NCBI GenBank assembly: GCA_041659805.1
Contig: JBAZXP010000001.1
Coordinates: 966,841 to 1,030,840 of the forward strand
Direction: 5' to 3'
From: Microgenomates group bacterium
GTDB lineage: Bacteria > Patescibacteriota > Microgenomatia > Daviesbacterales > UBA10151
DNA: 64,000 nt
Shown here: positions 7,720 to 46,769 of the stretch, in pieces
How positions within the stretch are numbered: the stretch's first letter is position 1
Layout of the letters: each line of letters opens with the position of its first letter
Program-made: the position numbers and the translations under genes
The notes under the pieces: model-generated
What the model saw: the letters and a program-made list of their open reading frames with translations, nothing else
What the model was told of the DNA's origin: nothing
The model's database searches: none

Positions 7720-8272
7720 GAAACCAAAAATGAATGTGCCTTACTTGTTTGAATGTTCCTCTTACCAATTTTGTATCAATATTAATCGGTCTTTCAAATA
7801 AAATTACCTTATCAGGAGTTAGTCTTAAAACAGTCATCACTTTGGCTATAAATTCAGCCGCAATAATCCTTTCTGTTGCCGGACTTGCCAACCAGATTAA
7901 AGATTGATTTAAGTCATCTGGTAACCAATATGGAAATAAATTTGGAGCTGCAGCCATATCAGAAGGTCCCAAAAAATCTTTTACCTGTCTTTCCAAATCT
8001 TCTTTTTTTTGTGCGTGATACCTATTATATTCATCTTCTGTCTTTATAGGCAAAAGTTCCAAATGACGTATTTTATCTCTGTCTTTTAAAAGTGAGTTAA
8101 ACTTTGGATAAATTTTGGGATCAATAATTCCCGGTTTTTTAAATTCTCTTCCCAATAAAATCTCAGGTGGTGTCATAATTCCCAAAACATCATCAATTAA
8201 TTCTTTATCCACAGATATATCCTCCAAATCAGTTGTTCTTAAAATATTTGGAATAAATAAAAGTTCTTTCAT
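7709..8272 (-). CDS. hypothetical protein, C-terminal H-x-H-x-hydrophobic motif (possible HIT/GalT-like)
   Basis: 187 aa ending ...VRHIHFWFPTS; 4-bp overlap with the upstream PurA-like gene implies co-translation. Confidence 0.3.
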   Translation of the reverse strand: MKELLFIPNILRTTDLEDISVDKELIDDVLGIMTPPEILLGREFKKPGIIDPKIYPKFNSLLKDRDKIRHLELLPIKTEDEYNRYHAQKKEDLERQVKDFLGPSDMAAAPNLFPYWLPDDLNQSLIWLASPATERIIAAEFIAKVMTVLRLTPDKVILFERPINIDTKLVRGTFKQVRHIHFWFPTS

Positions 8273-9579
8273 ATTATATTTATTGTTTTATCCCCCGCTT
8301 TAGGCCCACTTGATGTTATAACTATAGGTACTTTAATTTGATCCTGAATAAATTGAACATATTCAGATGGAGGCAAAATATAATTTGGTGTGCATTTTTG
8401 TAACATTTCCCCCAATTTTTGCTGATAAATATTATCTGTTGGGTGCATAACTTCAATTTTTTGTAATATTTCCCCTGTCTCAGAGGTATAAGAATTACAT
8501 ATTTTCCATTCCGGCATGCTCTTTAATTTGTCCAAATGAGTTAAGGCAATCCCATCAACAGACCCCAAAACTTCAACAGCATACCTGAGGGTAACTAAAT
8601 CAAAAAACCCTACTCTAAAATTACCCTGCCAGGGATTAGTTAAATTACTGGTATCAGGCAAGAGCTTAGATAATGTTTTATCTTCTGTGGGAAAAGGGCC
8701 TGCTCCGTGACGCGTAGCATATGCCCTGATTACTCCCAATTTGTATACTTCCCCCTGATATCTACTACACCAAATAAGCTCATCAGCATTTCCAAATGTA
8801 GTATCCCCGTGGGTAATATATGGGTAAAATCCATATTCTTGATCTAGAAGCACACCTTGTGCTCCTTCAAAAATAGCAGTTCCTTTCTGATCTAATATCT
8901 TTTTTAAATAATGTCTGTCCACAATTTTAGCAACAGAAATAAATTCTTTATATAAATCCAAAGTGTAGTTTATAGCCTCAGGACTGTCTAAAATCTTCAA
9001 CTCTCTTTTTACTAAATCTGATTCAGGAAAGCTTCCTCTTAAATTCTTTATCTTTTTCAGTTGAACATCACGAAGAAATCGTAATTTCTTTTTTGCCGTT
9101 TTTGCGTCAAGTAAATCTTCCATCATCAAAGTTTCTCTGCCAAACTTTAAATAATCTGCCATAGCTTCACTGACCCCTCTGCCTGTACTGCTTGTTGTAT
9201 TTAAAGTCAGCAATCTGTTTGATGTCTGATGAAAAGGAGTGATCACAGGACATTCCCCTTCTATAGTAGTTTTTTGGAAAGCATCATTAATTCCCATTTC
9301 CTTTAAACCCCGTTCTTCTTTTAGCATGCTCAAAGGATCAACCAGCATAAATCTGGAAAGATGAGTCTTTGTGCCACCTAAAGTTCCACTGCCAAATTGG
9401 GAAAAAATATGCTGATGTCCTTCAGGACTGATTACATTATGCCCGGCCTGAGCACCTCCGTTATAACGGATCACAGTATGTGCATTAAATTCCCTGCACA
9501 AAAAATCAGTAAGGCTGCCTTTTCCGGCGTCGCCGAAACCTAAATCTGCTATTTGTATTACTTTTTGCATTTCTTTCAT
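8269..9579 (-). CDS. purA: adenylosuccinate synthetase family protein (divergent PurA)
   Basis: PurA hallmarks present: GDAGKGS P-loop (canonical GDEGKGK), GGAQAGHNV, TGRG, FEGAQGVLLDQEYGFYPYIT, AYATRHGAGPFPTE, THLD, ITSSGP; 436 aa. Confidence 0.65.
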   Translation of the reverse strand: MKEMQKVIQIADLGFGDAGKGSLTDFLCREFNAHTVIRYNGGAQAGHNVISPEGHQHIFSQFGSGTLGGTKTHLSRFMLVDPLSMLKEERGLKEMGINDAFQKTTIEGECPVITPFHQTSNRLLTLNTTSSTGRGVSEAMADYLKFGRETLMMEDLLDAKTAKKKLRFLRDVQLKKIKNLRGSFPESDLVKRELKILDSPEAINYTLDLYKEFISVAKIVDRHYLKKILDQKGTAIFEGAQGVLLDQEYGFYPYITHGDTTFGNADELIWCSRYQGEVYKLGVIRAYATRHGAGPFPTEDKTLSKLLPDTSNLTNPWQGNFRVGFFDLVTLRYAVEVLGSVDGIALTHLDKLKSMPEWKICNSYTSETGEILQKIEVMHPTDNIYQQKLGEMLQKCTPNYILPPSEYVQFIQDQIKVPIVITSSGPKAGDKTINII

Positions 9580-9601
9580 ATTTTTAAATATAATTACTTT
9601 C

Positions 9602-9632
9602 GGGGGAGAGCCCTTATGTTTGGGGCTCTCCC
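9602..9632 (-). terminator. GC-rich hairpin (GGGAGAGCCC-N9-GGGCTCTCCC) between the vWA stop and the PurA-like start; possible partial terminator/attenuator
   Basis: 10-bp G/C stem in an AT-rich genome, 24 nt before the PurA-like ATG; a moderately U-rich tract follows on the minus strand. Confidence 0.4.
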
Positions 9633-9638
9633 GCCTTG

Positions 9639-10631
9639 CTACAGAAGCCTATATTTAGGCTTATCTGTATCTATCGGACCTAAATTGGTCCCACTATCAC
9701 CTTTAACTAACCTGCCATGCACTGGCACTACTGCGTTCCTGACAGCCAAGATTGTACTCTTACTGACTCCAAACTCTGCCAGGTTTTTCGAACCTGCGTC
9801 AAGATCAGTTGTCCCTTCGGATAAACCGATTTGTAGAGCAATTGTCTCGCAAACAGCCTCAGGATCTTCAAGCTGCAGGACATTTTGTCCTAAAAGCTTT
9901 CTCCAGGAAGCTAAAACTTCCGGGTCTCTCCCATTGCTAGCTGCAGTAGGCAGAATGTAAAAGGTCTCGTATCGTTTTTTCACTTCTTCAAATATCTCAA
10001 CAGTTGAGATATTTTCCTGAAGTGTGTCACCGATCACGTCAGCAACCTCTCTGGCTTTAACATTCGGATAAACCATTTCATCGCCGATAATAAACAAATA
10101 ACCTTTGTGTCTTCGTATATTCCAGCAATCAATGTCCGTATGTCTGGCCATAAAGTAGGTAGCCAACTCATAGCTTTCTGTTTTTTGAGCACCTCCGCCA
10201 CCTTCCAAAAGAATTTTTTCCAAATTCTCATCCATCCTGTTATCAGATTCAAACTGACCAATCTGAAGCGGAACACTGTCGCAGGTTGCGTCCCCAATGG
10301 CACCGAACAAAAACTGTGGATGCTCAGCCCAACCTTTCCGTACTACCAACCCGTTTAATTCCCCCAACTTTTTCTGGAAAATTTGGGGCAGAGTTCTCAT
10401 AGAACCCGTCACATCAAACAGTGTTGCAATGGCTAAAGAATATGCATGTTCTGCACTATCCCGACTTTCACGGAACCTGATACCTTTTGGATCAAGATTC
10501 GGATGAGCTTTCCACTTATCGCGGGAATACCGCTTAGTGTAATCATCATAGTCAAAAACCTTTTTTCCACTGGCTACTCTGGCCTTCTCACGTTCAGAAA
10601 AAACGTCTGTTGTCCATTCACCACCTCCCAT
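9639..10631 (-). CDS. von Willebrand factor A (vWA) domain protein
   Basis: MIDAS motif DVTGSM (DxSGS), downstream GGGGAQ and FIIGDE; likely start is MGGGEW at 10631, preceded by AAGGAGGTGA; the 9639..10673 ORF may be over-extended. Confidence 0.6.
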   Translation of the reverse strand: MGGGEWTTDVFSEREKARVASGKKVFDYDDYTKRYSRDKWKAHPNLDPKGIRFRESRDSAEHAYSLAIATLFDVTGSMRTLPQIFQKKLGELNGLVVRKGWAEHPQFLFGAIGDATCDSVPLQIGQFESDNRMDENLEKILLEGGGGAQKTESYELATYFMARHTDIDCWNIRRHKGYLFIIGDEMVYPNVKAREVADVIGDTLQENISTVEIFEEVKKRYETFYILPTAASNGRDPEVLASWRKLLGQNVLQLEDPEAVCETIALQIGLSEGTTDLDAGSKNLAEFGVSKSTILAVRNAVVPVHGRLVKGDSGTNLGPIDTDKPKYRLL

Positions 10632-11757
10632 TTTTATCACCTCCTTTCGCATTTTTTGGCATACTAAATACATGAAATTTCTTAGGACCCCATAAATCTA
10701 CAATCATAGAATCAAATTCTTCGAGTAATCCCCAGGCATCTTTTGGTCTTTGTTTCGCGGGCAACAAACAACCTCTGAAAAAAGCCTTTATTTTGGGATG
10801 AATATCACTTGGCAATTCCCCTAATTGAGGGTTACCTCCCAAAAGGTAAATCATATTTTTAGCTCCCAGATAAATATCCAATCCGGGACTCACCGGTTCT
10901 TTTTTGAATACTTCAGGCGGATACCAACTCTCCCAGTCACCGGATAGCGCCTGTAACCGTCCGCCTGTTGGATCTTTTTCAATTACAGAATATGACCATT
11001 CATTTATAACCAGTCCGTGTTTTTCCGGTTGGACAAAAAGATTTTGCGGCAGGGCAGCCCCATGAATTAAATTATTTTGATGTGCAAATCCCAACCCTAC
11101 TAATACTCTTCTGAATATCCATGCCATATCTTTTTGATCAATTCCTTTCGGATAAGCGTTTTTTACATCAACAAAAGAAAAAAGCTCATCCGGCCTTTTA
11201 GAAAAAGCATTAATGTTTTTGCGGATATGGTTGCTGTCCTCAAAAATAAAAGAATCAATTAAACCGGGAAAATACGGACGGAAATTATCAAAATTATCTA
11301 CTTCAGCCAATTTGCGAAGCATTTTAGCCTCATTTTCTACAAATTCGTTATCAAGAGGACTTTTTGCAACTTTAAATATGGCTGGAATATTAGTGCCACC
11401 TTCTTTATAGGTAGCCCCATGAACATTGCAAAAATCTGTTTGTGAGAAGGAATCAAAAATTTCATATTCCCTGACTCTGGTTCTGATGGTTAGCAAAACA
11501 TCCGGTGGAATTTGACCATAAGTTCCCAATTTTATTTTTTCCTGAGCTCTTTCCCAAAGCCTGGTCAGATTAATAAAGGCATCTTGAGCCTCTACTCCAC
11601 CATTTAAATCCGGATGAGTGAGCTTGCTTAATTGTCTGTATGTGGAAAGTACAGTTTTCAGAGGGTCGGCTGCTTCGCCTAATCCACCAAAGACATCTTC
11701 AGGATGTTTGGCATTGATAATTTTTTGTGTTATTAAATCTGACTCATTTTCTTTCAT
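10618..11757 (-). CDS. J-domain (DnaJ-like, HPD) fused to a degenerate protein-kinase-like (pseudokinase) domain
   Basis: YRQLSKLTHPDLNGGVEAQDAFINLTRLWE is a J-domain helix II-III with HPD. A kinase-like fold follows: AIFKVAK (beta3 Lys), ENEAKMLRKL (alphaC Glu), LIHGAALPQNLFV replacing HRDLKPEN (no catalytic Asp), no DFG, WYPPE replacing APE. Likely start is the ATG at 11757 preceded by GGAGGA, rather than the GTG at 11775. Confidence 0.55.
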   Translation of the reverse strand: MKENESDLITQKIINAKHPEDVFGGLGEAADPLKTVLSTYRQLSKLTHPDLNGGVEAQDAFINLTRLWERAQEKIKLGTYGQIPPDVLLTIRTRVREYEIFDSFSQTDFCNVHGATYKEGGTNIPAIFKVAKSPLDNEFVENEAKMLRKLAEVDNFDNFRPYFPGLIDSFIFEDSNHIRKNINAFSKRPDELFSFVDVKNAYPKGIDQKDMAWIFRRVLVGLGFAHQNNLIHGAALPQNLFVQPEKHGLVINEWSYSVIEKDPTGGRLQALSGDWESWYPPEVFKKEPVSPGLDIYLGAKNMIYLLGGNPQLGELPSDIHPKIKAFFRGCLLPAKQRPKDAWGLLEEFDSMIVDLWGPKKFHVFSMPKNAKGGDKNGRW

Positions 11758-11763
11758 GTTGTA

Positions 11764-11826
11764 AGTGTCCTCCACACACTAACTATAGTGTAACTATTAC
11801 ACAAAGGTTAGTGTTTTGTCAACACC
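11764..11826. promoter_or_regulatory. three tandem palindromic operator-like sites AGTGT-N7-ACAC(T/A/C) at 11764, 11787 and 11810 (23-bp phasing), overlapping the RBS/start and a TTGACA -35 on the minus strand
   Basis: AGTGTcctccacACACT (perfect), AGTGTaactattACACa, AGTGTtttgtcaACACc; the third spacer is the reverse complement of TTGACA, followed by a TGTGTAATAG-like -10. Confidence 0.5.
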
Positions 11827-12124
11827 CTATTTTGATTCTTGACGATTTATTATTAGAGCCCTACAATACCAATCTAGAAGACTGCTCTTTAAAAAATGAG
11901 TAAAGTTGATTTAGATTATTATGATAGGTTAGAGGTTAGCCCCCGTGCCAGAGCCTCTGTGGTGAACTTTGCTTAAAAGGAGATTTACTGGCAACAGCTG
12001 TGAATGTTTTTCAGGCTTTTAAATCAGTTTATCCTGATCCAACAACCCGCGAAAAACAAAATCCCAATCTATTCAGGTTACCCCAGAAATTATTCCGTTC
12101 GATGTTTAAGTAATACCTGAAATT

Positions 12125-15499: not shown

Positions 15500-15503
15500 A
15501 TAT

Positions 15504-18989: not shown

Positions 18990-19028
18990 TATTTGACTTT
19001 TTTGGGTTTTCAGCGTATCTTTGTGTGT

Positions 19029-19721
19029 ATGAGTGACACTATCAAACTTCCGGAAAAATATAATTTGAACGATTATCAGTGCCCTTCTGTAACTGTTGAT
19101 ATCCTTGTTTTTACAATCGAAGCTTCTGAACTAAAAGTATTACTCATCAAACGGGCAATCGAGCCTTTTAAAGACGAATGGGCTTTACCGGGAGGATTTA
19201 TAAAGATGGATGAATCCTTAGAAGCAGCAGCCTTAAGAGAATTAGTACAGGAAACAGGTGTAAAAAATGTTTATTTGGAACAACTTTATACTTTTGGGGA
19301 TACCAACAGAGATCCCAGAAGCAGAGTTATTACTGTTGCCTACTTCGCTCTTGTTCCAAGCGCTAAATTGGATTTGAAAGCATCAACAGACGCAGCTGAT
19401 GTGGCCTGGTTCCCTATAAAAAAACTTCCCAAATTAGCTTTTGATCACAAAAAAATTATTGATTATGCAATGAACAGACTAACAAGCAAGATTGAATATT
19501 CTAATATTGTATATGGATTACTTCCGATTAAATTCCGTCTAAGTGAGTTGCAAAAGGTATATGAAGTTATTTTAAGTAAAAAGATGGATAAAAGAAATTT
19601 CCGTAAATGGATACTTTCCTTAGGGTTACTTGAAGCCACGGGAGAAAAAGACACTGATGGCGCCCACAGACCTGCAGAACTTTTTAAATTTAAAAAAAGA
19701 GAACCAGTTCTATTTGACTAA
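19029..19721 (+). CDS. nrtR: Nudix-related transcriptional regulator (NrtR-like): N-terminal Nudix domain and C-terminal helical/winged-helix-like region
   Basis: Near-canonical Nudix box GGFIKMDESLEAAALRELVQETGV (one Glu to Gln change) followed by an ~80-aa C-terminal domain containing KRNFRKWI; sits next to a full NAD salvage operon. Start is the ATG at 19029; the ORF track uses TTG at 18993. Confidence 0.5.
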   Translation: MSDTIKLPEKYNLNDYQCPSVTVDILVFTIEASELKVLLIKRAIEPFKDEWALPGGFIKMDESLEAAALRELVQETGVKNVYLEQLYTFGDTNRDPRSRVITVAYFALVPSAKLDLKASTDAADVAWFPIKKLPKLAFDHKKIIDYAMNRLTSKIEYSNIVYGLLPIKFRLSELQKVYEVILSKKMDKRNFRKWILSLGLLEATGEKDTDGAHRPAELFKFKKREPVLFD

Positions 19722-19760
19722 AACGAATCCTGACCTTTTTTGTGATCAGGATTTATCGTT
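19722..19760. terminator. bidirectional intrinsic terminator between convergent nrtR-like (+) and pncA (-)
   Basis: AATCCTGAcC-tttttt-GtGATCAGGATT stem-loop flanked by T-runs on both strands. Confidence 0.6.
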
Positions 19761-19768: not shown

Positions 19769-20473
19769 TCATTGAGCCTTACCATAAATCTCAATGATTC
19801 TTGGAATTTCTCCAATGCTGATAATCTTAGCTCCAGCTTCTTCCATCTCTAATAAGGCCTGCTTTGCTCCTTCTGGAGTAATACCTGATATTGCATCTTC
19901 TACGATGTACGTCTGTATACCGCGCTTTTGCATCCCTACGACTGCAGCCAGATCACAATACTCAGTCGCAACATAATAAACAATAGCTGCTCTTACTCCT
20001 GCTTCTTTGAGAACAGTTTCAACAGCAGGGTTTGTAAAAACATCATAATGTTGTTTTTCAAAGATTATATCTTTGCCTGATCTTGCAATCTCTGCCAACT
20101 CATCTGGACTATAACGTCTGAAGTTGTCTCCCTCAGCAATCTTATTTTCAACAATTAAAGCTGAATCAGATGCTACTTCAGGAATAAAATCTATGCCAAA
20201 TGTTCCGTCTTCATTTAACTGATTGTATTTCCAATCCATGCAATGAAGCGGAAAAGGGCCTCCGTTATCGATAAGCTCAGGATCATCCATAAAATGTCTG
20301 TCCCTACTCTTAAATCTCCTGATACCTGCATCTTTTAGCATTTTTCCGACAGAAGCAGCATTTTCTCTGATTTCTTCAGCACCAGGAACGTATAATCTTC
20401 CGTCATTTTTTCTCATGAAATCATTCTGTGCATCAACTTCATAACCTATTAATTCTTTTGACATTTTTCTCAC
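19769..20473 (-). CDS. pncA: nicotinamidase/pyrazinamidase (isochorismatase-like cysteine hydrolase)
   Basis: LIGYEVDAQNDFM N-terminal signature and ~230-aa isochorismatase-family length, in an NAD salvage operon. Confidence 0.65.
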   Translation of the reverse strand: MRKMSKELIGYEVDAQNDFMRKNDGRLYVPGAEEIRENAASVGKMLKDAGIRRFKSRDRHFMDDPELIDNGGPFPLHCMDWKYNQLNEDGTFGIDFIPEVASDSALIVENKIAEGDNFRRYSPDELAEIARSGKDIIFEKQHYDVFTNPAVETVLKEAGVRAAIVYYVATEYCDLAAVVGMQKRGIQTYIVEDAISGITPEGAKQALLEMEEAGAKIISIGEIPRIIEIYGKAQ

Positions 20474-20479: not shown

Positions 20480-21385
20480 TCAAGGTAAAATTGCAACTCT
20501 AAGCGGGTGTTCGTGAGCTACAGAGATACTGACTTTACTTCCTTCTTCAAGGTTGAATGAAAAACTATCGTCACTTGGATCAGGATCAAAATCTATTTCT
20601 GTATCTTTCCCTAGAGAAAAAATTGTTAACTCCTCACCTAAATCCAAATCCCCAATTTCCAAAAATCCTGAATCAAGATCTTTTTCTCGGCAAACAAAAC
20701 GGGCATGAGGGGCAGTTCTGGGAAAATGAGAATATTTTTCCATAACTTCATCTTTCCAGTGTCCGACAATATTTCTGTACCAACCTGTAAGCCCTGAACC
20801 TGTGGCAATAACCAAACCGGAATTTTTTTGCTCGTCATTTATTCCGCGATAATTAATAATACTTCTGCTAATCCCTCTGTTTTTCAATTCACCGACAAAG
20901 ATTTCTGATAGAGCAAAAAACGGCAAAAGCTCTCCGTCTAAAACTGCCTGTAATCTTGTCCATTTTTCTGTTTCAAAGGAATTTTTATCCAGACAATCAC
21001 GGAGGTAGTCAATATGTTCAGGTTTAAAAGACAAAATCCCACCTTTAGAAGTTTCCGGATCAGAATTTATTCCAACAACCAGCTGGTCTCCGGTCACAAA
21101 ACGTGACACATATTGCAAATGATTATCTCCTCCGGGACTAAAAATAATGTTATATTTTTTAGCGACATCTACATTAAAATCATCGCGGTGGATTATTGGC
21201 ACGTTTAAAGCTTTGCCTAATTTTTCAATGTTCTCTATCTGTCTGTAATGACTGGCAATTTTTTTATCAGCATCTGCCCCCTGCTTTTTCCACAAATTAA
21301 TCTGATCCTGCATAGAAATATTGGAAGTTTTCATTTTCCATTCAACTACAGTGAGTTTTGGTACGATTACAGCCTCAACGCTCAT
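20480..21385 (-). CDS. nadK: NAD kinase-like (ATP-NAD kinase family, divergent GGDN motif)
   Basis: IIFSPGGDNHLQY (vs GGDGT), VVGINSDPETSKGGILSF (vs NxGxLGFL), ATGSGLTGWYRN (vs SGSTAY). Confidence 0.5.
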   Translation of the reverse strand: MSVEAVIVPKLTVVEWKMKTSNISMQDQINLWKKQGADADKKIASHYRQIENIEKLGKALNVPIIHRDDFNVDVAKKYNIIFSPGGDNHLQYVSRFVTGDQLVVGINSDPETSKGGILSFKPEHIDYLRDCLDKNSFETEKWTRLQAVLDGELLPFFALSEIFVGELKNRGISRSIINYRGINDEQKNSGLVIATGSGLTGWYRNIVGHWKDEVMEKYSHFPRTAPHARFVCREKDLDSGFLEIGDLDLGEELTIFSLGKDTEIDFDPDPSDDSFSFNLEEGSKVSISVAHEHPLRVAILP

Positions 21386-22320
21386 TTTATAAATCTCCTT
21401 TTCCCGATATAATCTTTAATGAATCGATTATGATCAAACGCTAGATTATCAGGTATTTGATCCCAAGGGAATACTTTAATATCAACGGCATCATCACCAG
21501 CTCTTAAGACTCCTCCATCAATCCTTTTTTCATAAACCATAGTGACGTAGTGACCTCTCGGATCTCTATCGGGATCTGAATATTGTCTGAATTGATCTTC
21601 TAAGGAAACTTCAATATCAAGATTTGTTTCTTCTTTTGCTTCCCTAACAGCAGCACCTTCAACAGTTTCCTTTCCATAATTAATATAACCTCCGGGGATT
21701 GCCCATTTTAAGGAATTCGGATCGCCTAATTTTTCTTTTCTCTGGATTAAAACAATACCCTCATCTCTATAATTAAGAATTACATCTGCTGTAACTGCAG
21801 GGTTTAGAAAACGCTCCCTACCGCTGATGCGCTGCTCTCCTTTGATCTTTTTTAGATGAGCAATCACTTCTTCTGGTACCAGGTCTTCCCACTCTCCACC
21901 GTTTTTAATCATTTCCCGAACATCTGTTGCGCAAATCGGTAAATCATGTATCGGCTTTCTGATTTCAATCCCGTATCCGTCAAATATTCTGCTTACCCAA
22001 TTATTTCCTGTGTAAACTATGCTGAATCTTTCAGGACTAAGGATATCGATTAGCTTTCTCCATTTTTCATCATTGTAAACATCGGGAATACCGAAAACTG
22101 CAAATGGTTTTTCCATTCTCTTTTCCAGAGTTGCTTTAATCATTTGCAAGCGTTCATTAAAACTGAAAGGGTTGTGCTCTGTATTGCCTTCCTGAGAAGA
22201 TCCAATTCCGATTAATATTTTTGCAACATCTGGTGCTCTTTCAATTTGTTTGACAACAGAAAGATGCCCCAAGTGAAATGGTTGAAATCTACCTACAACT
22301 AATGCATTTTCTTGTTTCAT
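21382..22320 (-). CDS. nadM: bifunctional NadM-type NMN/NaMN adenylyltransferase with C-terminal Nudix (ADP-ribose pyrophosphatase) domain
   Basis: ALVVGRFQPFHLGH (archaeal-type NMNAT HxGH) plus C-terminal Nudix box AIPGGYINYGKETVEGAAVREAKEETNL; likely start is MKQENAL at 22320. Confidence 0.75.
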   Translation of the reverse strand: MKQENALVVGRFQPFHLGHLSVVKQIERAPDVAKILIGIGSSQEGNTEHNPFSFNERLQMIKATLEKRMEKPFAVFGIPDVYNDEKWRKLIDILSPERFSIVYTGNNWVSRIFDGYGIEIRKPIHDLPICATDVREMIKNGGEWEDLVPEEVIAHLKKIKGEQRISGRERFLNPAVTADVILNYRDEGIVLIQRKEKLGDPNSLKWAIPGGYINYGKETVEGAAVREAKEETNLDIEVSLEDQFRQYSDPDRDPRGHYVTMVYEKRIDGGVLRAGDDAVDIKVFPWDQIPDNLAFDHNRFIKDYIGKRRFIK

Positions 22321-22324: not shown

Positions 22325-23953
22325 TTACCTCCTAAATTCATGACTAATCGGGATTCTTCTACCAATACCGAATGATTTCGGAGTAACTTTTATGCCGGGA
22401 GCAGCTTGTCTTCTTTTGTGTTCATTACGGATAATTAAATCCCAATATTTTTCGACCAACGGACGTGGGTATTCTTTTAAAACTTCTTCTATAGTTGCCC
22501 TATCCTCTATTAAACGATTTACAATTGGCACAATCAGGTCATAATCGGCTCCAAGGCTCCCTTCATCTGTTTGATTCTCACTAAGCTCTGCTGAAGGCTC
22601 TTTAATAATTGAATTTCGGGGAATCACTTTTCTATAAAGATTAGCCAACTCATAAACTTTTAATTTATCAACGTCAGATATAGCAGCCAGGCCTCCTGCC
22701 ATATCTCCATAAAGGGTACAGTAACCAAGCGCTGTTTCTGTTTTATTTCCTGTGCTGATTACTAAAGCATTTTCCTCATTTGCCTGTGCCATTAAAATCA
22801 TTCCCCTGATTCTTGCCTGAATATTTTGATTAGTTAAGTCTTTTGGATCTTTTTGCAAAACTTGTGATATTTCACCAACTAAAGTTTTTCGTGTTTCTTC
22901 GATCGGAATGATCTGAAAATTAATCCCTAAATTTTCAGATAGTTTTCTTGCGTCATCCACACTTCCGGAACTTGAAATTCTGGATGGCATTGTAATACCT
23001 GTTACGTTTTCTTTGCCCAAGGCTTGAGTTGCCAAAGCAGCTACTACTGCTGAATCGATCCCCCCAGAAAGTCCAATAAAAGCCTTATTAAAATTTGATC
23101 TTCTGAAGTATTCTTTAATCCCTAAAACCAAAGCCTTATTTAATTGATCAATTGAATCAGTATTCTGAGGTAATATTTCCTTTGGATTATCCAAATCTAC
23201 TTTAACGCTATCTTCCTCAAACGCCTTCCCCAGACCTAATAATTTTCCATCTGCCCCTAAAACTATACTTTGACCGTCAAAAACCAATTGTCCGTCATAA
23301 CCGTCCTGTGAGCCAACTAAATTGGTATAGATAAAAGGCTTTTTGTATGTGTTAACAACTCTTTCAATAAGATTTTTTCTGACATTAAATTTATCTAGAT
23401 AAAATGGAGAAGCAGAGATATTTATTAAAACATCTGCTCCTTTTTCAACCAACTCAGATGTAACATTTTTTTGATAACCATTACTCCAAAGGTCTTCACA
23501 AATTTCTATACCTAATTTCTTTCCACAAACTTCATATAATTTGTGTGACCTGTTGGCAGAAAAATATCTGGTTTCATAAAAAACATCATAGGTTGGCAGA
23601 AGTGTTTTATCTTCTATTCCCAAAATTTTTCCATTTTGTAAAATCGCTGCGCTATTAAATCTGATTGGTGTGCCATCAGGCCCAATGATATTTGGGTCTG
23701 AATCAACAAAACCCACAATTGCTGTAATTCCTTCTGTTGCGGCAACAATCCGAGATAAAGCTTCTTTATTTTGAGAAATATAATCAGAATAAAGCAACAA
23801 ATCCATAGACATATATCCTGGGATTGTCAGCTCTGGAAAAACTATCAAATCAGATTTGTTTAATTTTGCCTGCTCAATATAAGAAATTATTTTTTGGGTA
23901 TTTTTTTCTATACACCCAGGATCTGTATTAATTTGTGCAAGTTCTAATTTCAT
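22325..23953 (-). CDS. nadE: glutamine-dependent NAD+ synthetase (nitrilase domain + NAD synthetase domain)
   Basis: N-terminal CN-hydrolase domain (FPELTIPGY), C-terminal GLSGGIDSAVVAALA PP-loop; 542 aa. Confidence 0.8.
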   Translation of the reverse strand: MKLELAQINTDPGCIEKNTQKIISYIEQAKLNKSDLIVFPELTIPGYMSMDLLLYSDYISQNKEALSRIVAATEGITAIVGFVDSDPNIIGPDGTPIRFNSAAILQNGKILGIEDKTLLPTYDVFYETRYFSANRSHKLYEVCGKKLGIEICEDLWSNGYQKNVTSELVEKGADVLINISASPFYLDKFNVRKNLIERVVNTYKKPFIYTNLVGSQDGYDGQLVFDGQSIVLGADGKLLGLGKAFEEDSVKVDLDNPKEILPQNTDSIDQLNKALVLGIKEYFRRSNFNKAFIGLSGGIDSAVVAALATQALGKENVTGITMPSRISSSGSVDDARKLSENLGINFQIIPIEETRKTLVGEISQVLQKDPKDLTNQNIQARIRGMILMAQANEENALVISTGNKTETALGYCTLYGDMAGGLAAISDVDKLKVYELANLYRKVIPRNSIIKEPSAELSENQTDEGSLGADYDLIVPIVNRLIEDRATIEEVLKEYPRPLVEKYWDLIIRNEHKRRQAAPGIKVTPKSFGIGRRIPISHEFRR

Positions 23954-25125
23954 GCAGCTAACCCCAACCTTTCTAAAGTTTCCCTAACTATCGATTTGTC
24001 ACCGGAGATCTTTCCTAAATCGTCTGAAAGTTTTACTACAGCTATTTGATCCAAACTTTGTGGCTTGGTAATATGAAACATTTTAATTACCATATTTAAA
24101 GGAATTCGACCAACATCATTAGTGAAATTTGTACCAATTCCAAATAACGTATTAATTCTGCCTTCGTTATATTTGAGAATTTCCAAAGCCCGTGGAATAT
24201 CTAAAGCATCAGAGTATAGGGCTGTAAAATCCATTGGATTTAAGCCAAGTTTATTTTGAATATGATTAATAATTTTATCTGTCCAGGCTTCTGGATTACC
24301 GGAATCCTGTCTTAAGGTCTTGAAAATTGCTGCCTTCTCAGACGTGTAAGACTTTAGAAAATTGTCAGTTGTATAAGTATCTGTTAGAGCTGTTGCCAAA
24401 CTTCCATTAAATTCTTTTGCCCAAATTTCCATAGCCATCTGATTGGCTCTTTCTACTCCATATATTCCAGACAACCCTTGTACCCATTCATGAGCAAAAG
24501 TCCCTTTTGGAGATAAGTCATACTTCATCGCCAATTCAACGTTACTGGTTCCTAAAAGCGAAGCTCCTCCATCTCTTTTTAAAATCGATATGAGTTCGTC
24601 ATGCACAAAATAAGAAGCCCTTCGTCTAGTTCCAAATTCCAAATATCTGGCGCCATTAGCTAGAAATATTTGAGCTTTTTTTGAAGCCTTTTCTTGCCAA
24701 CCTTCTACTGGTGGTTGCCCTGTTTCTTGAAAATAAAGTTCAGAAATAGTTGCCATCAAAGGAACTTCCCAATAAATTGCTTTGTGCCAAGGTCCTTCTA
24801 TATCAACAGATAAATCTCCTCCGTCTTGTTTTATAGAAACTTCTTCCGGACTAAAACGGTATTTAGAAAACCAATTAAGATAATCAGCTGCAAGATATGG
24901 GCAGCCAACTTCTAAAAACTTTCTTTGTTGCTCAGTCAGAGATAAGTCTGCCATTAAATCTACCTGCTCTTGTAGTTTTTGACCGAATCCATTAGGAAAT
25001 TCTGTCTTTGCACGGTTAATAAACTTAAACCCTGCATCAATATCTGCAAAGTTATGAAAAACTGCCTGACCCATTGTCAGCTTGTATAAATCGTTATCTA
25101 ATAATGTATGTATAATTCTTTCCAT
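23950..25125 (-). CDS. pncB: nicotinate phosphoribosyltransferase
   Basis: N-terminal LLDNDLYKLTMGQAV matches the PncB signature (DxYKxTM); 391 aa. Confidence 0.75.
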   Translation of the reverse strand: MERIIHTLLDNDLYKLTMGQAVFHNFADIDAGFKFINRAKTEFPNGFGQKLQEQVDLMADLSLTEQQRKFLEVGCPYLAADYLNWFSKYRFSPEEVSIKQDGGDLSVDIEGPWHKAIYWEVPLMATISELYFQETGQPPVEGWQEKASKKAQIFLANGARYLEFGTRRRASYFVHDELISILKRDGGASLLGTSNVELAMKYDLSPKGTFAHEWVQGLSGIYGVERANQMAMEIWAKEFNGSLATALTDTYTTDNFLKSYTSEKAAIFKTLRQDSGNPEAWTDKIINHIQNKLGLNPMDFTALYSDALDIPRALEILKYNEGRINTLFGIGTNFTNDVGRIPLNMVIKMFHITKPQSLDQIAVVKLSDDLGKISGDKSIVRETLERLGLAA

Positions 25126-25166: not shown

Positions 25167-26156
25167 TTAAACAGTAAAGAAATATTTTGACTGTTTTAGC
25201 GATTCATCTATTAATTGAATAGCTGAATTTAAACGGGTTTTTTGAGAACCTTCCAAAACTACAAAATTCTTTTTTGACTTCTTAAGTTCTTCAATAAACC
25301 TCACATGCATTTGATGACGGATATGTTCCCCATCCCTTGTACCATCTTGAACAAACGGGATTTCATCCCCTGTTAAAAGATAAAGATCGTAACTATGTTT
25401 TTTAGAAACTGCTTTCACTTCCGGTGAAATTTTTCCGACATATCGTTCATTCCAAAGAGTAGTTGCAAAAGCATCTGTATCACAAATAAGTAGTCTGTTT
25501 GCTCTTCTGGCAAGAATATCCTCCAACCTGTTTTGCTCTTTTGCTATATGTACGAATTCTTTGTCTACCCACATATTCCCTTCAGGAGAAAACATCTTCG
25601 CCTCGTAATATATTCTTCCGTATTCGGGTACCCAACTCGTTTCATAATGTTTTGCTAAATCTTTTGCCAAGGTTGTGGTACCGGTAGATTCTGCTCCCAG
25701 AACACATATTTTTTTAACAAAATATGCCCTTACATTTGGTTCTAGATATTTCCAATATTTAAGAGGATTTTGTCTTATCATTGTTCCGGAACAAGGAACG
25801 TGCACTCTTTCTCTATCCACTAAAATATGTTTGGATCCCATGAATTTTGCATAAGGCTCACCATAATCCTCAGAAGTAAAAACTAAATCAGGGACGAAAC
25901 CCAACCATTCGATTGTTTTCTTAGCCCAGATTTTTGAATCATCTGGATCAAGATCGCTTTCATCGATTACCATAACTTTTACCTTTGGATGAATTTCTCT
26001 TATCCATTTTGCCCGTAATTTTGGTGAAATTGTTTGCGCTTTTTTCCCACAAACAATAACAGTTAGATGATCAACTTGAGAGCTTGCTGTATCTATCAAG
26101 TATTTATGACCCAAGTGTGGTGGATAAAATTTTCCGATTACCAATCCTTTTATCAT
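25167..26156 (-). CDS. nadR: NadR-type bifunctional NMN adenylyltransferase / ribosylnicotinamide kinase (no HTH domain)
   Basis: GKFYPPHLGHKYLI (HxGH nucleotidyltransferase) and a C-terminal P-loop kinase domain GAESTGTTTLAKDLA; start taken at MIKGLVIG (26156), which abuts the pnuC stop. Confidence 0.7.
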   Translation of the reverse strand: MIKGLVIGKFYPPHLGHKYLIDTASSQVDHLTVIVCGKKAQTISPKLRAKWIREIHPKVKVMVIDESDLDPDDSKIWAKKTIEWLGFVPDLVFTSEDYGEPYAKFMGSKHILVDRERVHVPCSGTMIRQNPLKYWKYLEPNVRAYFVKKICVLGAESTGTTTLAKDLAKHYETSWVPEYGRIYYEAKMFSPEGNMWVDKEFVHIAKEQNRLEDILARRANRLLICDTDAFATTLWNERYVGKISPEVKAVSKKHSYDLYLLTGDEIPFVQDGTRDGEHIRHQMHVRFIEELKKSKKNFVVLEGSQKTRLNSAIQLIDESLKQSKYFFTV

Positions 26157-26794
26157 TTTGTTCCTCCCATTAATGACTTGCGCCATTGCATAAGCCCTAC
26201 TATGCACATACAAAGGAATAGCGCATAAAGAACGCTTGTCAGGTACAAGCCCTTGTAGGCATATAGCCAAATGTAAATTACATCAGCAGAAATCCAAACA
26301 TACCAATTCTCAAGTATTTTTCGTGTTAATAAGTACTGCGCTACCAAGCTCATCACCGTGGTTAAAGCGTCCCAAAAAGGTGCTGAATCGTTGATTTGTC
26401 GCAGATATACAGTCATTCCGAATGTTGTAAGAATTGTTATCATTAGGAGTATTAACACGGTATTGATCCCTACGTGAGAAACTTTAAGTTCGGTTTTATT
26501 CTCCCCACCTTTTAGCCACCAGTACCAACCCAGGATTCCTAAAACTATATAGACAACCTGAAGTCCCATATCTGCAAAAAGCCTGGCTTGTAAAAATAAA
26601 ACAATAAAGAAAACATTGTTGGCGATCCCAATAGGCCAATTCCAAATATTTTGTTTTACAGTCAACCAAACACAAGCTGCACCAGTTATAAATCCAAGTA
26701 CTTCAGTTACCCCCATTGGTAAAATACTTTTCCAAGATGTATACAGCAAGGCTGCTGAAACTAAACTAAAAATTGTTAATTCTTTTTTGTTCAT
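26153..26794 (-). CDS. pnuC: nicotinamide riboside transporter PnuC
   Basis: 213-aa, 7-TM protein with WNWPIGIANNVFF; classical pnuC-nadR adjacency. Confidence 0.65.
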   Translation of the reverse strand: MNKKELTIFSLVSAALLYTSWKSILPMGVTEVLGFITGAACVWLTVKQNIWNWPIGIANNVFFIVLFLQARLFADMGLQVVYIVLGILGWYWWLKGGENKTELKVSHVGINTVLILLMITILTTFGMTVYLRQINDSAPFWDALTTVMSLVAQYLLTRKILENWYVWISADVIYIWLYAYKGLYLTSVLYALFLCMCIVGLMQWRKSLMGGTK

Positions 26795-26815
26795 ATAATT
26801 TATTTCTTTTGTATT

Positions 26816-26877
26816 AGTGTCTTTCTTACACTTACTTAGTGTATGATATACCCTTTAGTTAGTGTTGTCAATACACT
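26816..26877. promoter_or_regulatory. promoter of the pnuC-nadR-pncB-nadE-nadM-nadK-pncA operon with three tandem AGTGT-N7-AC(A/C)CT operator-like palindromes (22-23 bp phasing)
   Basis: AGTGTctttcttACACT (26816-26832), AGTGTatgatatACcCT (26838-26854), AGTGTtgtcaatACACT (26861-26877). The third spacer is TTGACA on the coding strand, a TATCAT -10 lies inside the second box and the first box sits at the presumed TSS. Confidence 0.5.
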
Positions 26878-26920
26878 ACTTTATAACAAAGGGATTTGTG
26901 TGGTTACTTTTAGAATTAAC

Positions 26921-29258: not shown

Positions 29259-29351
29259 ATTAGATATATCAACTATTTATACCTAGGATTGAATCGCTGG
29301 TCAAGATTAAGAAATAAAAATTTAATAAAAGTGATAAAATTGCTAAAGGTT

Positions 29352-36037: not shown

Positions 36038-36039
36038 AA

Positions 36040-39240: not shown

Positions 39241-39243
39241 AAC

Positions 39244-40290: not shown

Positions 40291-40298
40291 ATAAAAAT

Positions 40299-41984: not shown

Positions 41985-42030
41985 ACTAAAATAGTGCTAG
42001 CAGATTACGGGTAAAATGAAAAGAATTTAA

Positions 42031-42408: not shown

Positions 42409-42410
42409 TT

Positions 42411-45351: not shown

Positions 45352-45410
45352 CCCCTTTTGAGATATGCATTTATCGTATCATAAAAAAAATGAGAATTCA
45401 GTAAGAATAA

Positions 45411-45971: not shown

Positions 45972-46003
45972 TAATTAATGATAAACACAAAATAAATAAT
46001 CTG

Positions 46004-46375: not shown

Positions 46376-46376
46376 T

Positions 46377-46742: not shown

Positions 46743-46769
46743 AGCATCTTTATTCTGTACATATTTAGC

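What the first reader, a model, noticed from the sequence alone, without database searches (positions are those of the whole stretch)
26795..26920. NAD salvage operon promoter carries three phased AGTGT-N7-ACACT palindromes overlapping -35, -10 and TSS
Upstream of pnuC (the first gene of a seven-gene operon) the sequence has AGTGT-ctttctt-ACACT, AGTGT-atgatat-ACcCT and AGTGT-tgtcaat-ACACT at 22-23 bp spacing. On the coding strand the third box encloses a perfect TTGACA -35 and the second encloses TATCAT; the first lies at the expected TSS. Three helically phased operators blanketing the promoter is the architecture of a cooperative repressor. As I recall, NrtR-family operators are ~21-bp palindromes with a conserved GT-N7-AC core, which this motif contains. 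An NrtR-like gene lies 7 kb away.
Basis: partly seen in the sequence, partly recalled or inferred. Interest (0 to 1): 0.75.

Follow-up and report, generated by a model that had tools for sequence, protein, structure and literature searches.

The report
NrtR repressor sites blanketing NAD-salvage promoter
Three adjacent binding sites for the NAD-sensing repressor NrtR cover the promoter of a seven-gene NAD-salvage operon in an uncultured Microgenomates bacterium; this is a tidy, well-supported example of a known type of regulation, not a new mechanism.

Summary
Three AGTGT-N7-ACACT palindromes lie 22 and 23 bp apart, directly upstream of pnuC. In extended form they are TTAGTGT-N7-ACACTAA, 21 bp.

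The -35 (TTGACA) and -10 (TATCAT) hexamers sit inside the variable N7 spacers of boxes 3 and 2. Box 1 lies just downstream of the predicted transcription start.

The NrtR interpretation is supported:
- The gene at 19029-19721 has the Nudix and NrtR winged-helix domains.
- The same motif lies just upstream of nrtR orthologues in 39 of 80 loci from many phyla, a 75-fold enrichment.
- The solved NrtR-family protein BtAraR binds AGTGT-N7-ACAC operators. Six of its ten named DNA-contact residues are identical here.
- A PWM trained only on relatives ranks the window's six array boxes as its top six hits.

- An identical triple array lies at 11762-11828, in front of a J-domain kinase / vWA-like / PurA-like cassette. 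That cassette is syntenic with nrtR in other CPR genomes.
- A single site overlaps the start codon of nrtR, which appears to be leaderless.
- Close relatives keep arrays of 3-4 sites; more distant ones have 1-2.

The window is a cellular Microgenomates genome, not a phage. Binding, cooperativity and the ADP-ribose effector remain inferred. Verdict: a new member of a known kind, of moderate interest.

The parts
26859..26879 (-). Operator O3 (box 3). 21-bp site TTAGTGTtgtcaatACACTAC, core 26861-26877. It encloses the -35 hexamer.
   Evidence: Top PWM hit in the window at 20.4 bits. The core AGTGTTGTCAATACACT is identical in L082, L083 and L089. It is invariant in the promoter alignment.
26836..26856 (-). 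Operator O2 (box 2). 21-bp site TTAGTGTatgatatACCCTTT, core 26838-26854, one core mismatch. It encloses the -10 hexamer.
   Evidence: PWM score 15.0 bits. The same box, AGTGTATGATATACCCT, is present in L082 at 12933.
26814..26834 (-). Operator O1 (box 1). 21-bp site TTAGTGTctttcttACACTTA, core 26816-26832. It lies about +3..+23 from the inferred transcription start.
   Evidence: PWM score 20.3 bits. Half-sites are conserved and the spacer varies in the alignment.
26866..26871 (-). -35 hexamer TTGACA, inside the N7 spacer of O3.
   Evidence: Promoter scan.
26843..26848 (-). -10 hexamer TATCAT, 17-nt spacer from the -35, inside the N7 spacer of O2.
   Evidence: Promoter scan.
26153..26794 (-). 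pnuC (NMN / nicotinamide riboside transporter), first gene of the operon.
   Evidence: Pfam NMN_transporter, 2.8e-54.
25167..26156 (-). nadR-like gene: NMN adenylyltransferase plus ribosylnicotinamide kinase, without an HTH domain. Its ATG overlaps the pnuC stop codon (ATGA).
   Evidence: TIGR01526 4.8e-71; the match to PRK08099 covers model positions 66-409 only. Junction shown.
23950..25125 (-). pncB (nicotinate phosphoribosyltransferase).
   Evidence: Pfam NAPRTase and NAPRTase_N.
22325..23953 (-). nadE (glutamine-dependent NAD synthetase).
   Evidence: Pfam NAD_synthase and CN_hydrolase.
21382..22320 (-). nadM-Nudix (NMN adenylyltransferase fused to a Nudix domain).
20480..21385 (-). Divergent NAD-kinase-like gene.
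   Evidence: No Pfam hit. Only a weak NCBIfam NAD kinase match, 7.9e-06, far below the cut-off. It keeps the same operon position in L082, L089, L090, L091 and L092.
19769..20464 (-). pncA (nicotinamidase, isochorismatase family), last gene of the operon.
   Evidence: Pfam Isochorismatase, 1.1e-20.
19726..19753 (-). Hairpin terminator between the convergent genes pncA and nrtR.
   Evidence: sequence.
19029..19721 (+). nrtR, encoding a Nudix-related transcriptional regulator.
   Evidence: Pfam NUDIX and NrtR_WHD. PDB matches to BtAraR (1.1e-45) and SoNrtR (9.6e-39). NCBIfam NF050029 scores 198 bits, below its 400-bit equivalog cut-off.
19022..19042 (+). Single NrtR site TGTGTGTatgagtgACACTAT. 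It overlaps the nrtR start codon and the predicted transcription start, which suggests autoregulation.
   Evidence: PWM score 11.4 bits, which is within chance range on its own. A site in this position recurs in L082, L089, L090, L092, L212 and L213, and with two mismatches in L083, L091 and L215.
18993..19021 (+). Candidate nrtR promoter, TTGACT-17-TATCTT. It ends 7 nt before the ATG, which implies a leaderless mRNA.
   Evidence: The promoter is conserved in L082 and L089.
11762..11828 (-). Second triple NrtR array: 21-bp sites at 11762-11782, 11785-11805 and 11808-11828, at 23-bp spacing. TTGACA (11822-11817) and AATAGT (11798-11793) are nested in boxes 3 and 2.
   Evidence: PWM scores 18.2, 17.0 and 15.4 bits. 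The orthologous array in L082 is at 1142/1164/1187.
7709..11757 (-). Target of the second array. Four genes: J-domain plus protein-kinase-like (10618-11757), vWA-like (9639-10631), PurA-like (8269-9579) and a 187-aa protein (7709-8272).
   Evidence: The cassette is syntenic with nrtR and NAD-salvage genes in L092, L212, L213 and L215. NrtR boxes lie upstream of it in L082, L092, L212 and L215.

Best explanation
The three boxes are operators for the NrtR repressor encoded at 19029-19721. Each is a 21-bp palindrome, TTAGTGT-N7-ACACTAA, that binds one NrtR dimer through its C-terminal winged-helix domains.

The three sites abut, with 1-2 bp between them, and together cover about -43 to +23 of the sigma-70-type promoter. 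The -35 and -10 hexamers lie inside the sequence-tolerant N7 spacers of O3 and O2. A fully occupied array should therefore exclude RNA polymerase, and O1 would act as an added roadblock just after the start site.

The repressed operon is pnuC-nadR-pncB-nadE-nadM-nadK(like)-pncA, which covers NAD salvage and uptake. When an NAD-derived ligand, most likely ADP-ribose, binds the Nudix-like domain, NrtR releases the DNA and the operon is expressed.

The same protein appears to control two other promoters. One is an identical triple array in front of a J-domain kinase / vWA-like / PurA-like cassette. The other is its own, apparently leaderless, gene, through a single site on the start codon.

What is shown: the sites, their enrichment, their association with nrtR across genomes, their conservation at orthologous promoters, and the identity of seven of ten named DNA-contact residues with a structurally characterised relative that binds the same half-site.

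What is inferred: occupancy by NrtR in vivo, the direction of regulation (repression), the effector, the transcription start site, and any cooperativity between dimers.
For: Sites and promoter geometry.

Regulator domains.

Literature rule for NrtR sites, and repression inferred from site position: PMC2330246.

Cross-phylum association of AGTGT-N7-ACACT with the nrtR 5' region: 59 of 100 hits, 75-fold enrichment, 39 of 80 loci, 20 tandem pairs. Composition-matched controls gave 0-5 hits.

Close relatives:
- L082, L083 and L089 keep arrays of 3-4 sites at the orthologous operon promoter. Half-sites are invariant and spacers vary.
- L090, L091, L092, L212, L213 and L215 have 1-3 sites in front of pncA, pncB, pnuC, nadD and nrtR.

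A PWM trained without the window ranks the six array boxes 1-6.

BtAraR binds AGTGT-N7-ACAC operators. Its tandem sites are 3 bp apart and bind two dimers, and one dimer covers 25 bp. Seven of its ten named DNA-contact residues are identical in the window protein.

Residues that contact ADP-ribose in SoNrtR (Tyr10, Phe15, Arg41, Arg98) correspond to Y11, Y16, R42 and R97 here. The arabinose-binding AraR has Gly at the Arg98 position.

No riboswitch or other Rfam family matches the region.
Against: There is no experimental binding, footprint or expression data for this organism.

The protein scores 198 bits against NCBIfam's 'ADPR responsive transcriptional repressor' equivalog model, below its 400-bit cut-off. 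By sequence it is slightly closer to the arabinose sensor BtAraR than to SoNrtR. The effector is therefore uncertain.

Three of the ten BtAraR DNA-contact residues differ here, all in the wing region (K200, K204, A208 correspond to T209, H213, E217).

The middle box of each array is the weakest (15.0 and 17.0 bits).

The single nrtR site scores 11.4 bits, which is within the chance range for a 64-kb scan on its own (null mean maximum 11.4). It rests on positional conservation in relatives.

The spacing of 22-23 bp is smaller than the 25 bp covered by one AraR dimer. Three dimers may not all fit at once, or must touch each other.

The transcription start is predicted, not mapped.
Confidence: 0.85

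Rival explanations
1. The boxes are operators for a different transcription factor, or for a second NrtR-family paralogue encoded outside the window. The neighbouring nrtR gene would then be a coincidence.
For: No binding data exist. NrtR-family motifs vary between clades (PMC2330246). Only 64 kb of a contig of at least 1.13 Mb was examined.
Against: The motif tracks nrtR orthologues across many phyla. It sits on the nrtR start codon in the window and in at least six relatives. The recognition-helix residues that contact GTGT in the BtAraR-DNA structure are identical here. No other protein with an NrtR winged-helix domain was seen among the window proteins scanned.
Confidence: 0.05
2. The array is a structural or evolutionary by-product with no regulatory role. 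It could be a short tandem duplication of a 22-23-bp promoter-proximal unit, or a generic promoter feature of this AT-rich genome.
For: A metagenome scan for three AGTGT-N7-AC units at this spacing returned at least 119 loci. Most were plain 22/23-bp tandem repeats with no NrtR or NAD genes nearby. Such periodic arrays can therefore arise for unrelated reasons.
Against: Self-identity of the window arrays at a shift of 22/23 bp is only 0.49-0.53. It comes from the half-sites and short linkers, not from whole units. Half-sites are invariant and spacers diverge across five promoters in three genomes. In the window the motif occurs at only three loci, all linked to nrtR or its regulon. The promoter hexamers are placed precisely in the spacers at both promoters.
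Confidence: 0.03
3. Regulation acts at the RNA level. The leader upstream of pnuC would be an NAD-type riboswitch (such as the pnuC motif / NAD+-II class) or an attenuator built from the transcribed palindrome.
For: Box 1 is transcribed and can form a 5-8 bp hairpin.
Against: A permissive Rfam search (E up to 10) over 26600-27100 found only a chance snoRNA hit at 16 bits. The predicted leader folds at just -4.3 kcal/mol, z = -2.4, and 7 of 200 shuffles fold as well. Boxes 2 and 3 lie upstream of the predicted start and would not be transcribed. The same boxes precede non-pnuC genes.
Confidence: 0.02
4. NrtR binds the array, but the effector or the logic differs from the ADP-ribose anti-repressor model. 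NAD could act as a co-repressor, as reported for C. glutamicum NdnR. Another metabolite could be sensed. The near-intact Nudix box could retain hydrolase activity that shapes the signal.
For: Known effectors in the family include ADP-ribose, NAD and L-arabinose (PMC4666351). The Nudix box here is RELVQETGV, only one Glu-to-Gln change away from the catalytic consensus (sequence). NCBIfam's ADPR-repressor equivalog cut-off is not met.
Against: Four residues that contact ADP-ribose in SoNrtR are conserved or conservatively replaced here. The regulon content is salvage of nicotinamide, nicotinate and nicotinamide riboside. That fits sensing of an NAD-breakdown product, as shown for two NrtRs (PMC2330246).
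Confidence: 0.2

Closest known systems
NrtR regulons of NAD metabolism (Rodionov et al. 2008, PMC2330246), for example Shewanella oneidensis nrtR-prs-nadV with two tandem sites and Synechocystis Slr1690
   Same: The regulator has a Nudix domain fused to a winged-helix domain. The operators are 21-bp palindromes with a GT-N7-AC core. Sites overlap promoter elements of NAD salvage and synthesis genes (pncA, pncB, nadE, nadM and others). Tandem sites that bind two dimers are documented. Repression relieved by ADP-ribose is the demonstrated model.
   Different: This case has three abutting sites (four in L082) rather than one or two. The -35 and -10 hexamers are nested in the operator spacers. The host is a CPR (Microgenomates) bacterium, a group not covered in that study. 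The regulon also includes a non-NAD-annotated kinase / vWA-like / PurA-like cassette.
Bacteroides thetaiotaomicron AraR (NrtR family; PDB 5bs6, 5dd4, 5ddg, 5deq; PMC4666351)
   Same: It is the best PDB match to the window protein (1.1e-45). Its experimentally bound operators are AGTGT-N7-ACAC(C/T), the same core as here. Seven of its ten named DNA-contact residues are identical, including the whole DKRNFRK recognition-helix motif. Its tandem 21-bp sites are separated by 3 bp and bind two dimers.
   Different: AraR senses L-arabinose and controls arabinose utilisation. It has Gly where SoNrtR and the window protein have the Arg that contacts ADP-ribose. Its arrays have two sites about 24 bp apart, not three at 22-23 bp.
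Mycobacterium smegmatis NrtR (PMC6800001)
   Same: It is an auto-repressor that also represses an NAD biosynthesis operon, and ADP-ribose disrupts its binding.
   Different: Its operator is a different palindrome, GTTTTCGA-N7-TCGAAAAC. It has a single site between divergent genes and controls de novo synthesis (nadABC), not salvage.
Enterobacterial NadR (HTH-NMNAT-RNK), and NiaR
   Same: Both are repressors of NAD salvage, uptake or synthesis genes, including pnuC, that respond to pyridine nucleotide status.
   Different: The nadR-like gene in this operon has no HTH domain. The NadR operator is TGTTTA-N6-TAAACA (PMC2330246), which is not the motif found here.
Phage NARP3 module, PnuC plus HTH-less NadR (PMC13464706)
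   Same: The first two genes of this operon form the same two-gene unit: a PnuC transporter followed by an NMNAT-RNK enzyme lacking the HTH domain.
   Different: Here the unit is cellular, sits inside a longer salvage operon, and is under predicted NrtR control. No NrtR control of NARP3 is described in that paper.

Membership tests
NrtR regulator / operator system | The regulator has an N-terminal Nudix-like domain fused to a C-terminal NrtR-type winged-helix domain. | tested here: met
   Pfam NUDIX 3.6e-22 and NrtR_WHD 6e-25, both above their gathering scores. Full-length PDB matches to BtAraR and SoNrtR.
NrtR regulator / operator system | The operator is a palindrome of about 21 bp with a conserved GT-N7-AC core. 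| tested here: met
   TTAGTGT-N7-ACACTAA, three copies. The rule is stated in PMC2330246.
NrtR regulator / operator system | [quoted passage not shown] | tested here: met
   The array spans the -35, the -10 and the early leader of the pnuC...pncA operon.
NrtR regulator / operator system | The motif co-occurs with nrtR orthologues and is conserved upstream of orthologous targets in related genomes. | tested here: met
   75-fold enrichment next to nrtR in 80 loci, with composition-matched controls. Arrays are conserved in L082, L083 and L089, and sites are present in L090-L092, L212, L213 and L215.
NrtR regulator / operator system | DNA-recognition residues are compatible with the observed half-site. 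| tested here: met
   BtAraR residues S163, D178, R180, R183, K184, R205 and A207 correspond to S172, D187, R189, R192, K193, R214 and A216 in the window protein. Three wing-region contacts differ (K200, K204, A208 correspond to T209, H213, E217)..
NrtR regulator / operator system | The purified protein binds the sites specifically, and ADP-ribose (or another NAD metabolite) relieves binding. | not testable with these tools
   This needs EMSA or footprinting. The only indirect support is that four SoNrtR residues that contact ADP-ribose are conserved or conservatively replaced.
NCBIfam NF050029 'ADPR responsive transcriptional repressor' (equivalog) | Whole-protein score at or above the curated cut-off of 400 bits. 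| tested here: not met
   198.3 bits, E = 1.4e-58. It is the best NCBIfam hit but falls below equivalog level. The protein is therefore filed as an NrtR-family member, not as an equivalog of the model's seed proteins.
NAD riboswitches and other Rfam families (including the pnuC motif) | A covariance-model match in the leader upstream of pnuC. | tested here: not met
   The only hit was a 16-bit chance match to a snoRNA family at E = 6.2.
Enterobacterial NadR repressor system | An N-terminal HTH domain on NadR, and TGTTTA-N6-TAAACA operators. | tested here: not met
   The nadR-like protein matches PRK08099 from model position 66 onward only, so it lacks the HTH region. The boxes have a different sequence.

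The most novel reading that the evidence does not exclude
In CPR bacteria (Microgenomates and Saccharimonadaceae), the NrtR regulon includes a conserved, uncharacterised cassette as well as NAD salvage genes. The cassette has a J-domain protein-kinase-like protein, a vWA-like protein and a PurA-like GTP-dependent ligase whose aspartate-binding loop is altered. In some genomes a protein of about 190 aa follows. In this window the cassette is guarded by the same triple-operator promoter as the salvage operon. The most novel reading is that the cassette performs an unrecognised step, or a control function, in NAD / ADP-ribose metabolism in these reduced genomes, switched on together with salvage by one metabolite sensor.
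Probability: 0.3. Interest if true: 0.6.

Novelty: new member of a known kind. Interest (0 to 1): 0.35.

Why it matters
The finding gives a concrete, testable regulatory circuit in a Microgenomates (CPR) bacterium. These are organisms with tiny genomes, few recognisable regulators and no cultured representatives for most lineages.

It shows that the AGTGT-N7-ACACT specificity of one NrtR clade is conserved from Bacteroides AraR through Chloroflexi, Planctomycetes and Proteobacteria to CPR and DPANN genomes. NrtR targets can therefore be predicted in metagenome-assembled genomes with a single profile.

The array also shows a compact design principle. The operator period of 23 bp equals the centre-to-centre distance between the -35 and -10 hexamers, so both hexamers fit inside the operator spacers.

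The practical lead is the second target. A kinase / vWA-like / PurA-like cassette of unknown function is co-regulated and syntenic with NAD salvage genes in several CPR lineages.

None of this changes the accepted view of how NrtR works.

Tried and rejected
1. Phage origin, with a phage-encoded, ADP-ribose-sensing counter-defence operon.
- This was suggested by strong PHROG hits, by NrtR-like genes in huge phages and by the NARP3 paper.
- It was rejected. The PHROG hits turned out to be a GspE/PilB ATPase, histidine kinases and an MFS transporter. The window also carries a type IV pilus cluster.
- There is no DNA match to any phage record.
- One window protein is 100% identical to a protein of a Microgenomates MAG on a 1.13-Mb contig.

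2. Viral-contig searches.
- The NrtR protein search returned one locus at 51% identity, with no motif.
- The exact box-3 sequence returned four loci, each with a single site and no NAD genes.
- Neither search was informative.

3. Metagenome scan for the triple pattern.
- None encodes NrtR or NAD genes (the positive control worked).
- 84 of the 119 are near-perfect 22/23-bp tandem repeats. The rest include other recurrent elements.
- The pattern was too permissive for perfect repeats, so the scan says nothing about how common NrtR triple arrays are.

4. LR756504 huge-phage locus (L084). No sites with one mismatch or fewer.

5. Riboswitch or attenuator reading. Rejected.

6. Anti-phage defence reading of the kinase / vWA-like / AAA genes. 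Only marginal PADLOC hits were found.

7. The supplementary site tables of Rodionov 2008 and the SoNrtR structure paper (PMC2896262) were not available. The S. oneidensis operator sequence could therefore not be compared directly.

8. The small + strand ORF at 11897-11977 is not homologous to the divergent 106-aa gene of L082.
Full report

Yes. The 126-bp gap between pnuC (26153-26794, minus strand) and the preceding gene (26921-28219) contains three boxes on the + strand:
- AGTGTctttcttACACT at 26816-26832
- AGTGTatgatatACCCT at 26838-26854
- AGTGTtgtcaatACACT at 26861-26877

They start 22 and 23 bp apart. With one mismatch allowed, the pattern occurs 9 times in the 64-kb window. Shuffles give 1.27 on average, and none of 100 shuffles reached 9.

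The flanks extend each box to a 21-bp palindrome, TTAGTGT-N7-ACACTAA. Neighbouring sites are therefore separated by only 1-2 bp.

The promoter scan finds a single sigma-70-type promoter in the region, on the coding (minus) strand: TTGACA (26871-26866), 17 nt, TATCAT (26848-26843). Both hexamers lie inside the N7 spacers of boxes 3 and 2. If transcription starts about 7 nt after the -10 (inferred), the array covers about -43 to +23, and box 1 sits just downstream of the start.

The operon has seven genes:
- pnuC
- an HTH-less nadR-like gene (NMNAT plus ribosylnicotinamide kinase)
- pncB
- nadE
- nadM-Nudix
- a divergent NAD-kinase-like gene
- pncA

The junctions are ATGA overlaps or short gaps with Shine-Dalgarno sequences. 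A hairpin terminator lies between pncA and the convergent nrtR gene.

**2. What organism is this?**

I first suspected a large phage. Several proteins hit PHROG families strongly, and NrtR-like genes exist in huge phages. This did not hold up:
- The PHROG hits are a PilB/GspE ATPase, Cache-PAS histidine kinases and an MFS transporter. The window also has a type IV pilus cluster.
- There is no nucleotide match to any phage record.
- One window protein is 100% identical to a protein of a 'Microgenomates group bacterium' MAG on a 1.13-Mb contig.

The window is a cellular CPR/Patescibacteria genome with 36% GC.

**3. Are the boxes NrtR operators?**

Five independent lines say yes.

(a) The regulator. 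The protein from 19029-19721 has NUDIX and NrtR_WHD domains. It aligns over its full length with the solved NrtR-family proteins BtAraR and SoNrtR.

(b) The published rule. NrtR motifs are mostly 21-bp palindromes with a GT-N7-AC core. They overlap promoters of NAD genes, and tandem sites bind two dimers (PMC2330246).

(c) Association across genomes.
- I fetched 80 loci encoding relatives with 49-62% identity. They come from Patescibacteria, Chloroflexota, Planctomycetota, Proteobacteria, Cyanobacteria, Acidobacteriota, DPANN archaea and other groups.
- Of 100 matches with at most one mismatch, 59 lie within -250..+30 of the nrtR start. That is 2.66 per kb against 0.035 per kb elsewhere.
- 39 loci have a site there. 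20 have a tandem pair, mostly 22-27 bp apart (extremes 30 and 32). None has three.
- Ten permuted half-sites of the same composition gave 0-5 such hits.

(d) Structural specificity.
- BtAraR was shown by EMSA and crystallography to bind AGAGTGTatttgatACACC, AAAGTGTtacttttACACC and AAAGTGTaaaaaagACACT.
- Mapping through the alignment, seven of the ten named contact residues are identical in the window protein: Ser163, Asp178, Arg180, Arg183, Lys184, Arg205 and Ala207 correspond to S172, D187, R189, R192, K193, R214 and A216. Three wing-region contacts differ: Lys200, Lys204 and Ala208 correspond to T209, H213 and E217.
- D187-R192 are invariant, and S172 and K193 are at least 90% conserved, in an alignment of 31 clade members.

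(e) Specificity within the window. A PWM built only from 27 sites in relatives ranks the six boxes of the two arrays as the top six hits (15.0-20.4 bits). Seven hits reach 12 bits, where simulated sequence gives 0.41.

**4. Conservation in close relatives**

- L082 (NrtR 88% identical) has four sites upstream of pncB (12873, 12911, 12933, 12956), a triple array upstream of the J-domain-kinase orthologue (1142, 1164, 1187) and one site on the nrtR start.
- L083 (76%) has a triple array (7416, 7439, 7462) upstream of pncB.
- L089 (86%) has at least three sites at the contig end upstream of pncB.

An alignment of the five promoters shows invariant GTGT/ACAC half-sites and an invariant TTGACA. The spacers and leaders differ. 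This is the footprint expected of protein-binding sites, not of a duplicated unit.

The same promoter drives pncB in these relatives and pnuC here. The pnuC-nadR pair therefore lies between the conserved promoter and the conserved pncB...pncA genes.

More distant relatives (L090 from Daviesbacteria, L091, L092, L212, L213, and L215 from Saccharimonadaceae) have one to three sites, at looser spacing, in front of pnuC, pncA, pncB, nadD and nrtR. In this small sample, abutting arrays of three or four sites occur only in the window's closest clade.

**5.

(i) A second triple array at 11762-11828 has the same geometry. Its -35 (TTGACA) and -10 (AATAGT) are nested in boxes 3 and 2. It precedes four genes:
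- a J-domain plus protein-kinase-like protein
- a vWA-like protein with no family hit (the vWA assignment rests on my reading of a DxTGS motif)
- a PurA-like protein
- a 187-aa protein

The cassette sits directly between nrtR and pncA-pncB... in L092 and L212, and at the end of the NAD operon in L213. In Saccharimonadaceae L215 it lies next to nrtR, nadE, pncA and pncB. NrtR boxes precede it in the window, L082, L092, L212 and L215. L214 has the cassette with no nrtR nearby, and no boxes.

The PurA-like protein keeps the GDxGKG, AGH and KLD motifs. The aspartate-binding loop TTGRRRR is replaced by WQGNFRV. The functional roles of these motifs are taken from my own knowledge of E. coli PurA.

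(ii) A single site overlaps the nrtR start codon (19022-19042). A TTGACT-17-TATCTT promoter ends 7 nt before the ATG, which implies a leaderless, autoregulated nrtR mRNA. The arrangement recurs in the relatives.

(iii) The 23-bp operator period equals the centre-to-centre distance between the -35 and -10 hexamers. This explains the tight spacing more simply than helical phasing does, since 22-23 bp is 2.1-2.2 turns.

**6. Mechanism**

The most likely mechanism is promoter occlusion by up to three adjacent NrtR dimers, relieved when an NAD-derived ligand binds the Nudix-like domain.

The effector is inferred. Residues that contact ADP-ribose in SoNrtR (Tyr10, Phe15, Arg41, Arg98) correspond to Y11, Y16, R42 and R97 here. 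The arabinose sensor AraR has Gly at the Arg98 position.

Three points argue for caution about the effector:
- The Nudix box (RELVQETGV) is nearly intact.
- The NCBIfam equivalog cut-off is not met (198 against 400 bits).
- NAD is the effector of at least one family member, NdnR.

One AraR dimer covers 25 bp and the sites here are 22-23 bp apart. Neighbouring dimers must therefore touch or compete. Cooperativity is plausible but untested.

**7. Rivals**

There is no Rfam hit, and the leader hairpin is weak at -4.3 kcal/mol.
- A meaningless tandem repeat is unlikely, given the conservation pattern.
- A metagenome scan for the triple pattern mostly returned unrelated perfect tandem repeats. It is uninformative.
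- Another transcription factor is unlikely, given lines (c) and (d) in section 3.

**8. Novelty and verdict**

NrtR control of pncA, pncB, nadE, nadM and pnuC-nadR-type salvage genes is already described. So are the GT-N7-AC palindrome, tandem sites and autoregulation (PMC2330246, PMC4666351, PMC6800001).

I found no paper in the held library that links NrtR to CPR bacteria. That is absence from this library only.

The following points are new in this case:
- a well-supported instance in a Microgenomates genome
- arrays of three or four abutting sites with the promoter hexamers nested in the spacers
- an uncharacterised cassette as a conserved regulon member

I classify the finding as a new member of a known kind, of moderate interest. 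The cassette is the most promising lead.

Noticed in passing
window 11762-11828: A second triple NrtR array at 23-bp spacing, with TTGACA and AATAGT nested in boxes 3 and 2. It lies upstream of a J-domain / kinase-like gene and is orthologous to an array in L082 (1142/1164/1187).
   Followed up: yes
window 7709-11757 (minus strand); L092 1240-5317; L212 8382-12520; L213 8529-12671; L215 10001-13741: A cassette of J-domain protein-kinase-like, vWA-like, PurA-like and (in some genomes) a protein of about 190 aa. It is syntenic with nrtR and NAD-salvage genes in several CPR lineages and is preceded by NrtR boxes. Its function is unknown. The family is small: 27 homologues of the kinase-like protein at E <= 1e-10.
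   Followed up: partly
window 8269-9579 (minus strand): The PurA-like protein is about 30% identical to E. coli PurA and scores far below the NCBIfam equivalog cut-offs. It keeps the P-loop Asp, the catalytic His and the KLD guanine-specificity motif. The aspartate-binding loop TTGRRRR is replaced by WQGNFRV, which hints at a different amine donor or substrate.
   Followed up: partly
window 18993-19042: The nrtR gene appears to be leaderless. Its TTGACT-17-TATCTT promoter ends 7 nt before the ATG, and a single NrtR site spans the start codon. The arrangement is conserved in relatives L082, L089, L090, L091 and L092.
   Followed up: yes
window 11839-11977 (+ strand): A divergent promoter-like site, TTGACG-17-TACAAT, is followed by a 26-codon ORF encoding MSKVDLDYYDRLEVSPRARASVVNFA. 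The peptide resembles the start of a J-domain and may be a gene remnant. It is not homologous to the divergent 106-aa gene at the same position in L082.
   Followed up: partly
window 12125-17771 (minus strand): Two large genes lie directly upstream of the second array: a 1124-aa AAA_5 (MoxR/dynein-like) ATPase and a 755-aa vWA-domain protein with a low-complexity Gly/Gln/Glu-rich region. There are no convincing PADLOC hits, and the pair is not conserved next to the cassette in L082.
   Followed up: partly
window 6133-6153: A PWM hit of 13.3 bits (AAAGTGTAATGAAAACCCATA) lies inside the ORF at 5838-6476. It is probably chance, since 0.41 hits at 12 bits or more are expected per window.
   Followed up: no
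window 29190-30224 (+), 30216-30653 (-), 32191-33429 (-): More NAD- and PRPP-related genes sit near the operon without NrtR boxes. They are a ribose-phosphate pyrophosphokinase, a small cytidylyltransferase-like protein (possibly a NadD/NMNAT type), and a second, very divergent Prs-like protein that hits a PHROG family only.
   Followed up: no
window 36000-49200 (minus strand): A type IV pilus / T2SS-like cluster is present (PilB/GspE at 40299-41984, PilC/GspF at 39244-40290, and a pseudopilin with an N-methylation motif at 36929-38767). Two paralogous Cache-HAMP-PAS histidine kinases lie at 42411-44780 and 46770-49118.
   Followed up: no
L098, L110, L137, L138, L151, L158, L172, L175, L176, L178 (metagenome loci): A recurrent, near-identical element in many unrelated metagenome contigs: AGTGTGATT(T/A)(C/T)GACA(T/C)...AGTGTCGTTTTGACA(C/T)C...AGTGTGAAAATGACAC. 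It consists of three GTGTC/GACAC-type palindromes at 23-bp spacing. No NrtR or NAD genes are nearby and its nature is unknown. A second recurrent element (AGTGTGCACAACACACC...) occurs in L115, L146, L154, L170 and L204.
   Followed up: no
L082 12873-12972 and L089 6130-6208: In the closest relatives the NAD-operon promoter carries a fourth NrtR site about 38-40 bp downstream of the triple array, just before the pncB start codon. The window has no equivalent site, either before pnuC or in the gap between nadR and pncB.
   Followed up: partly
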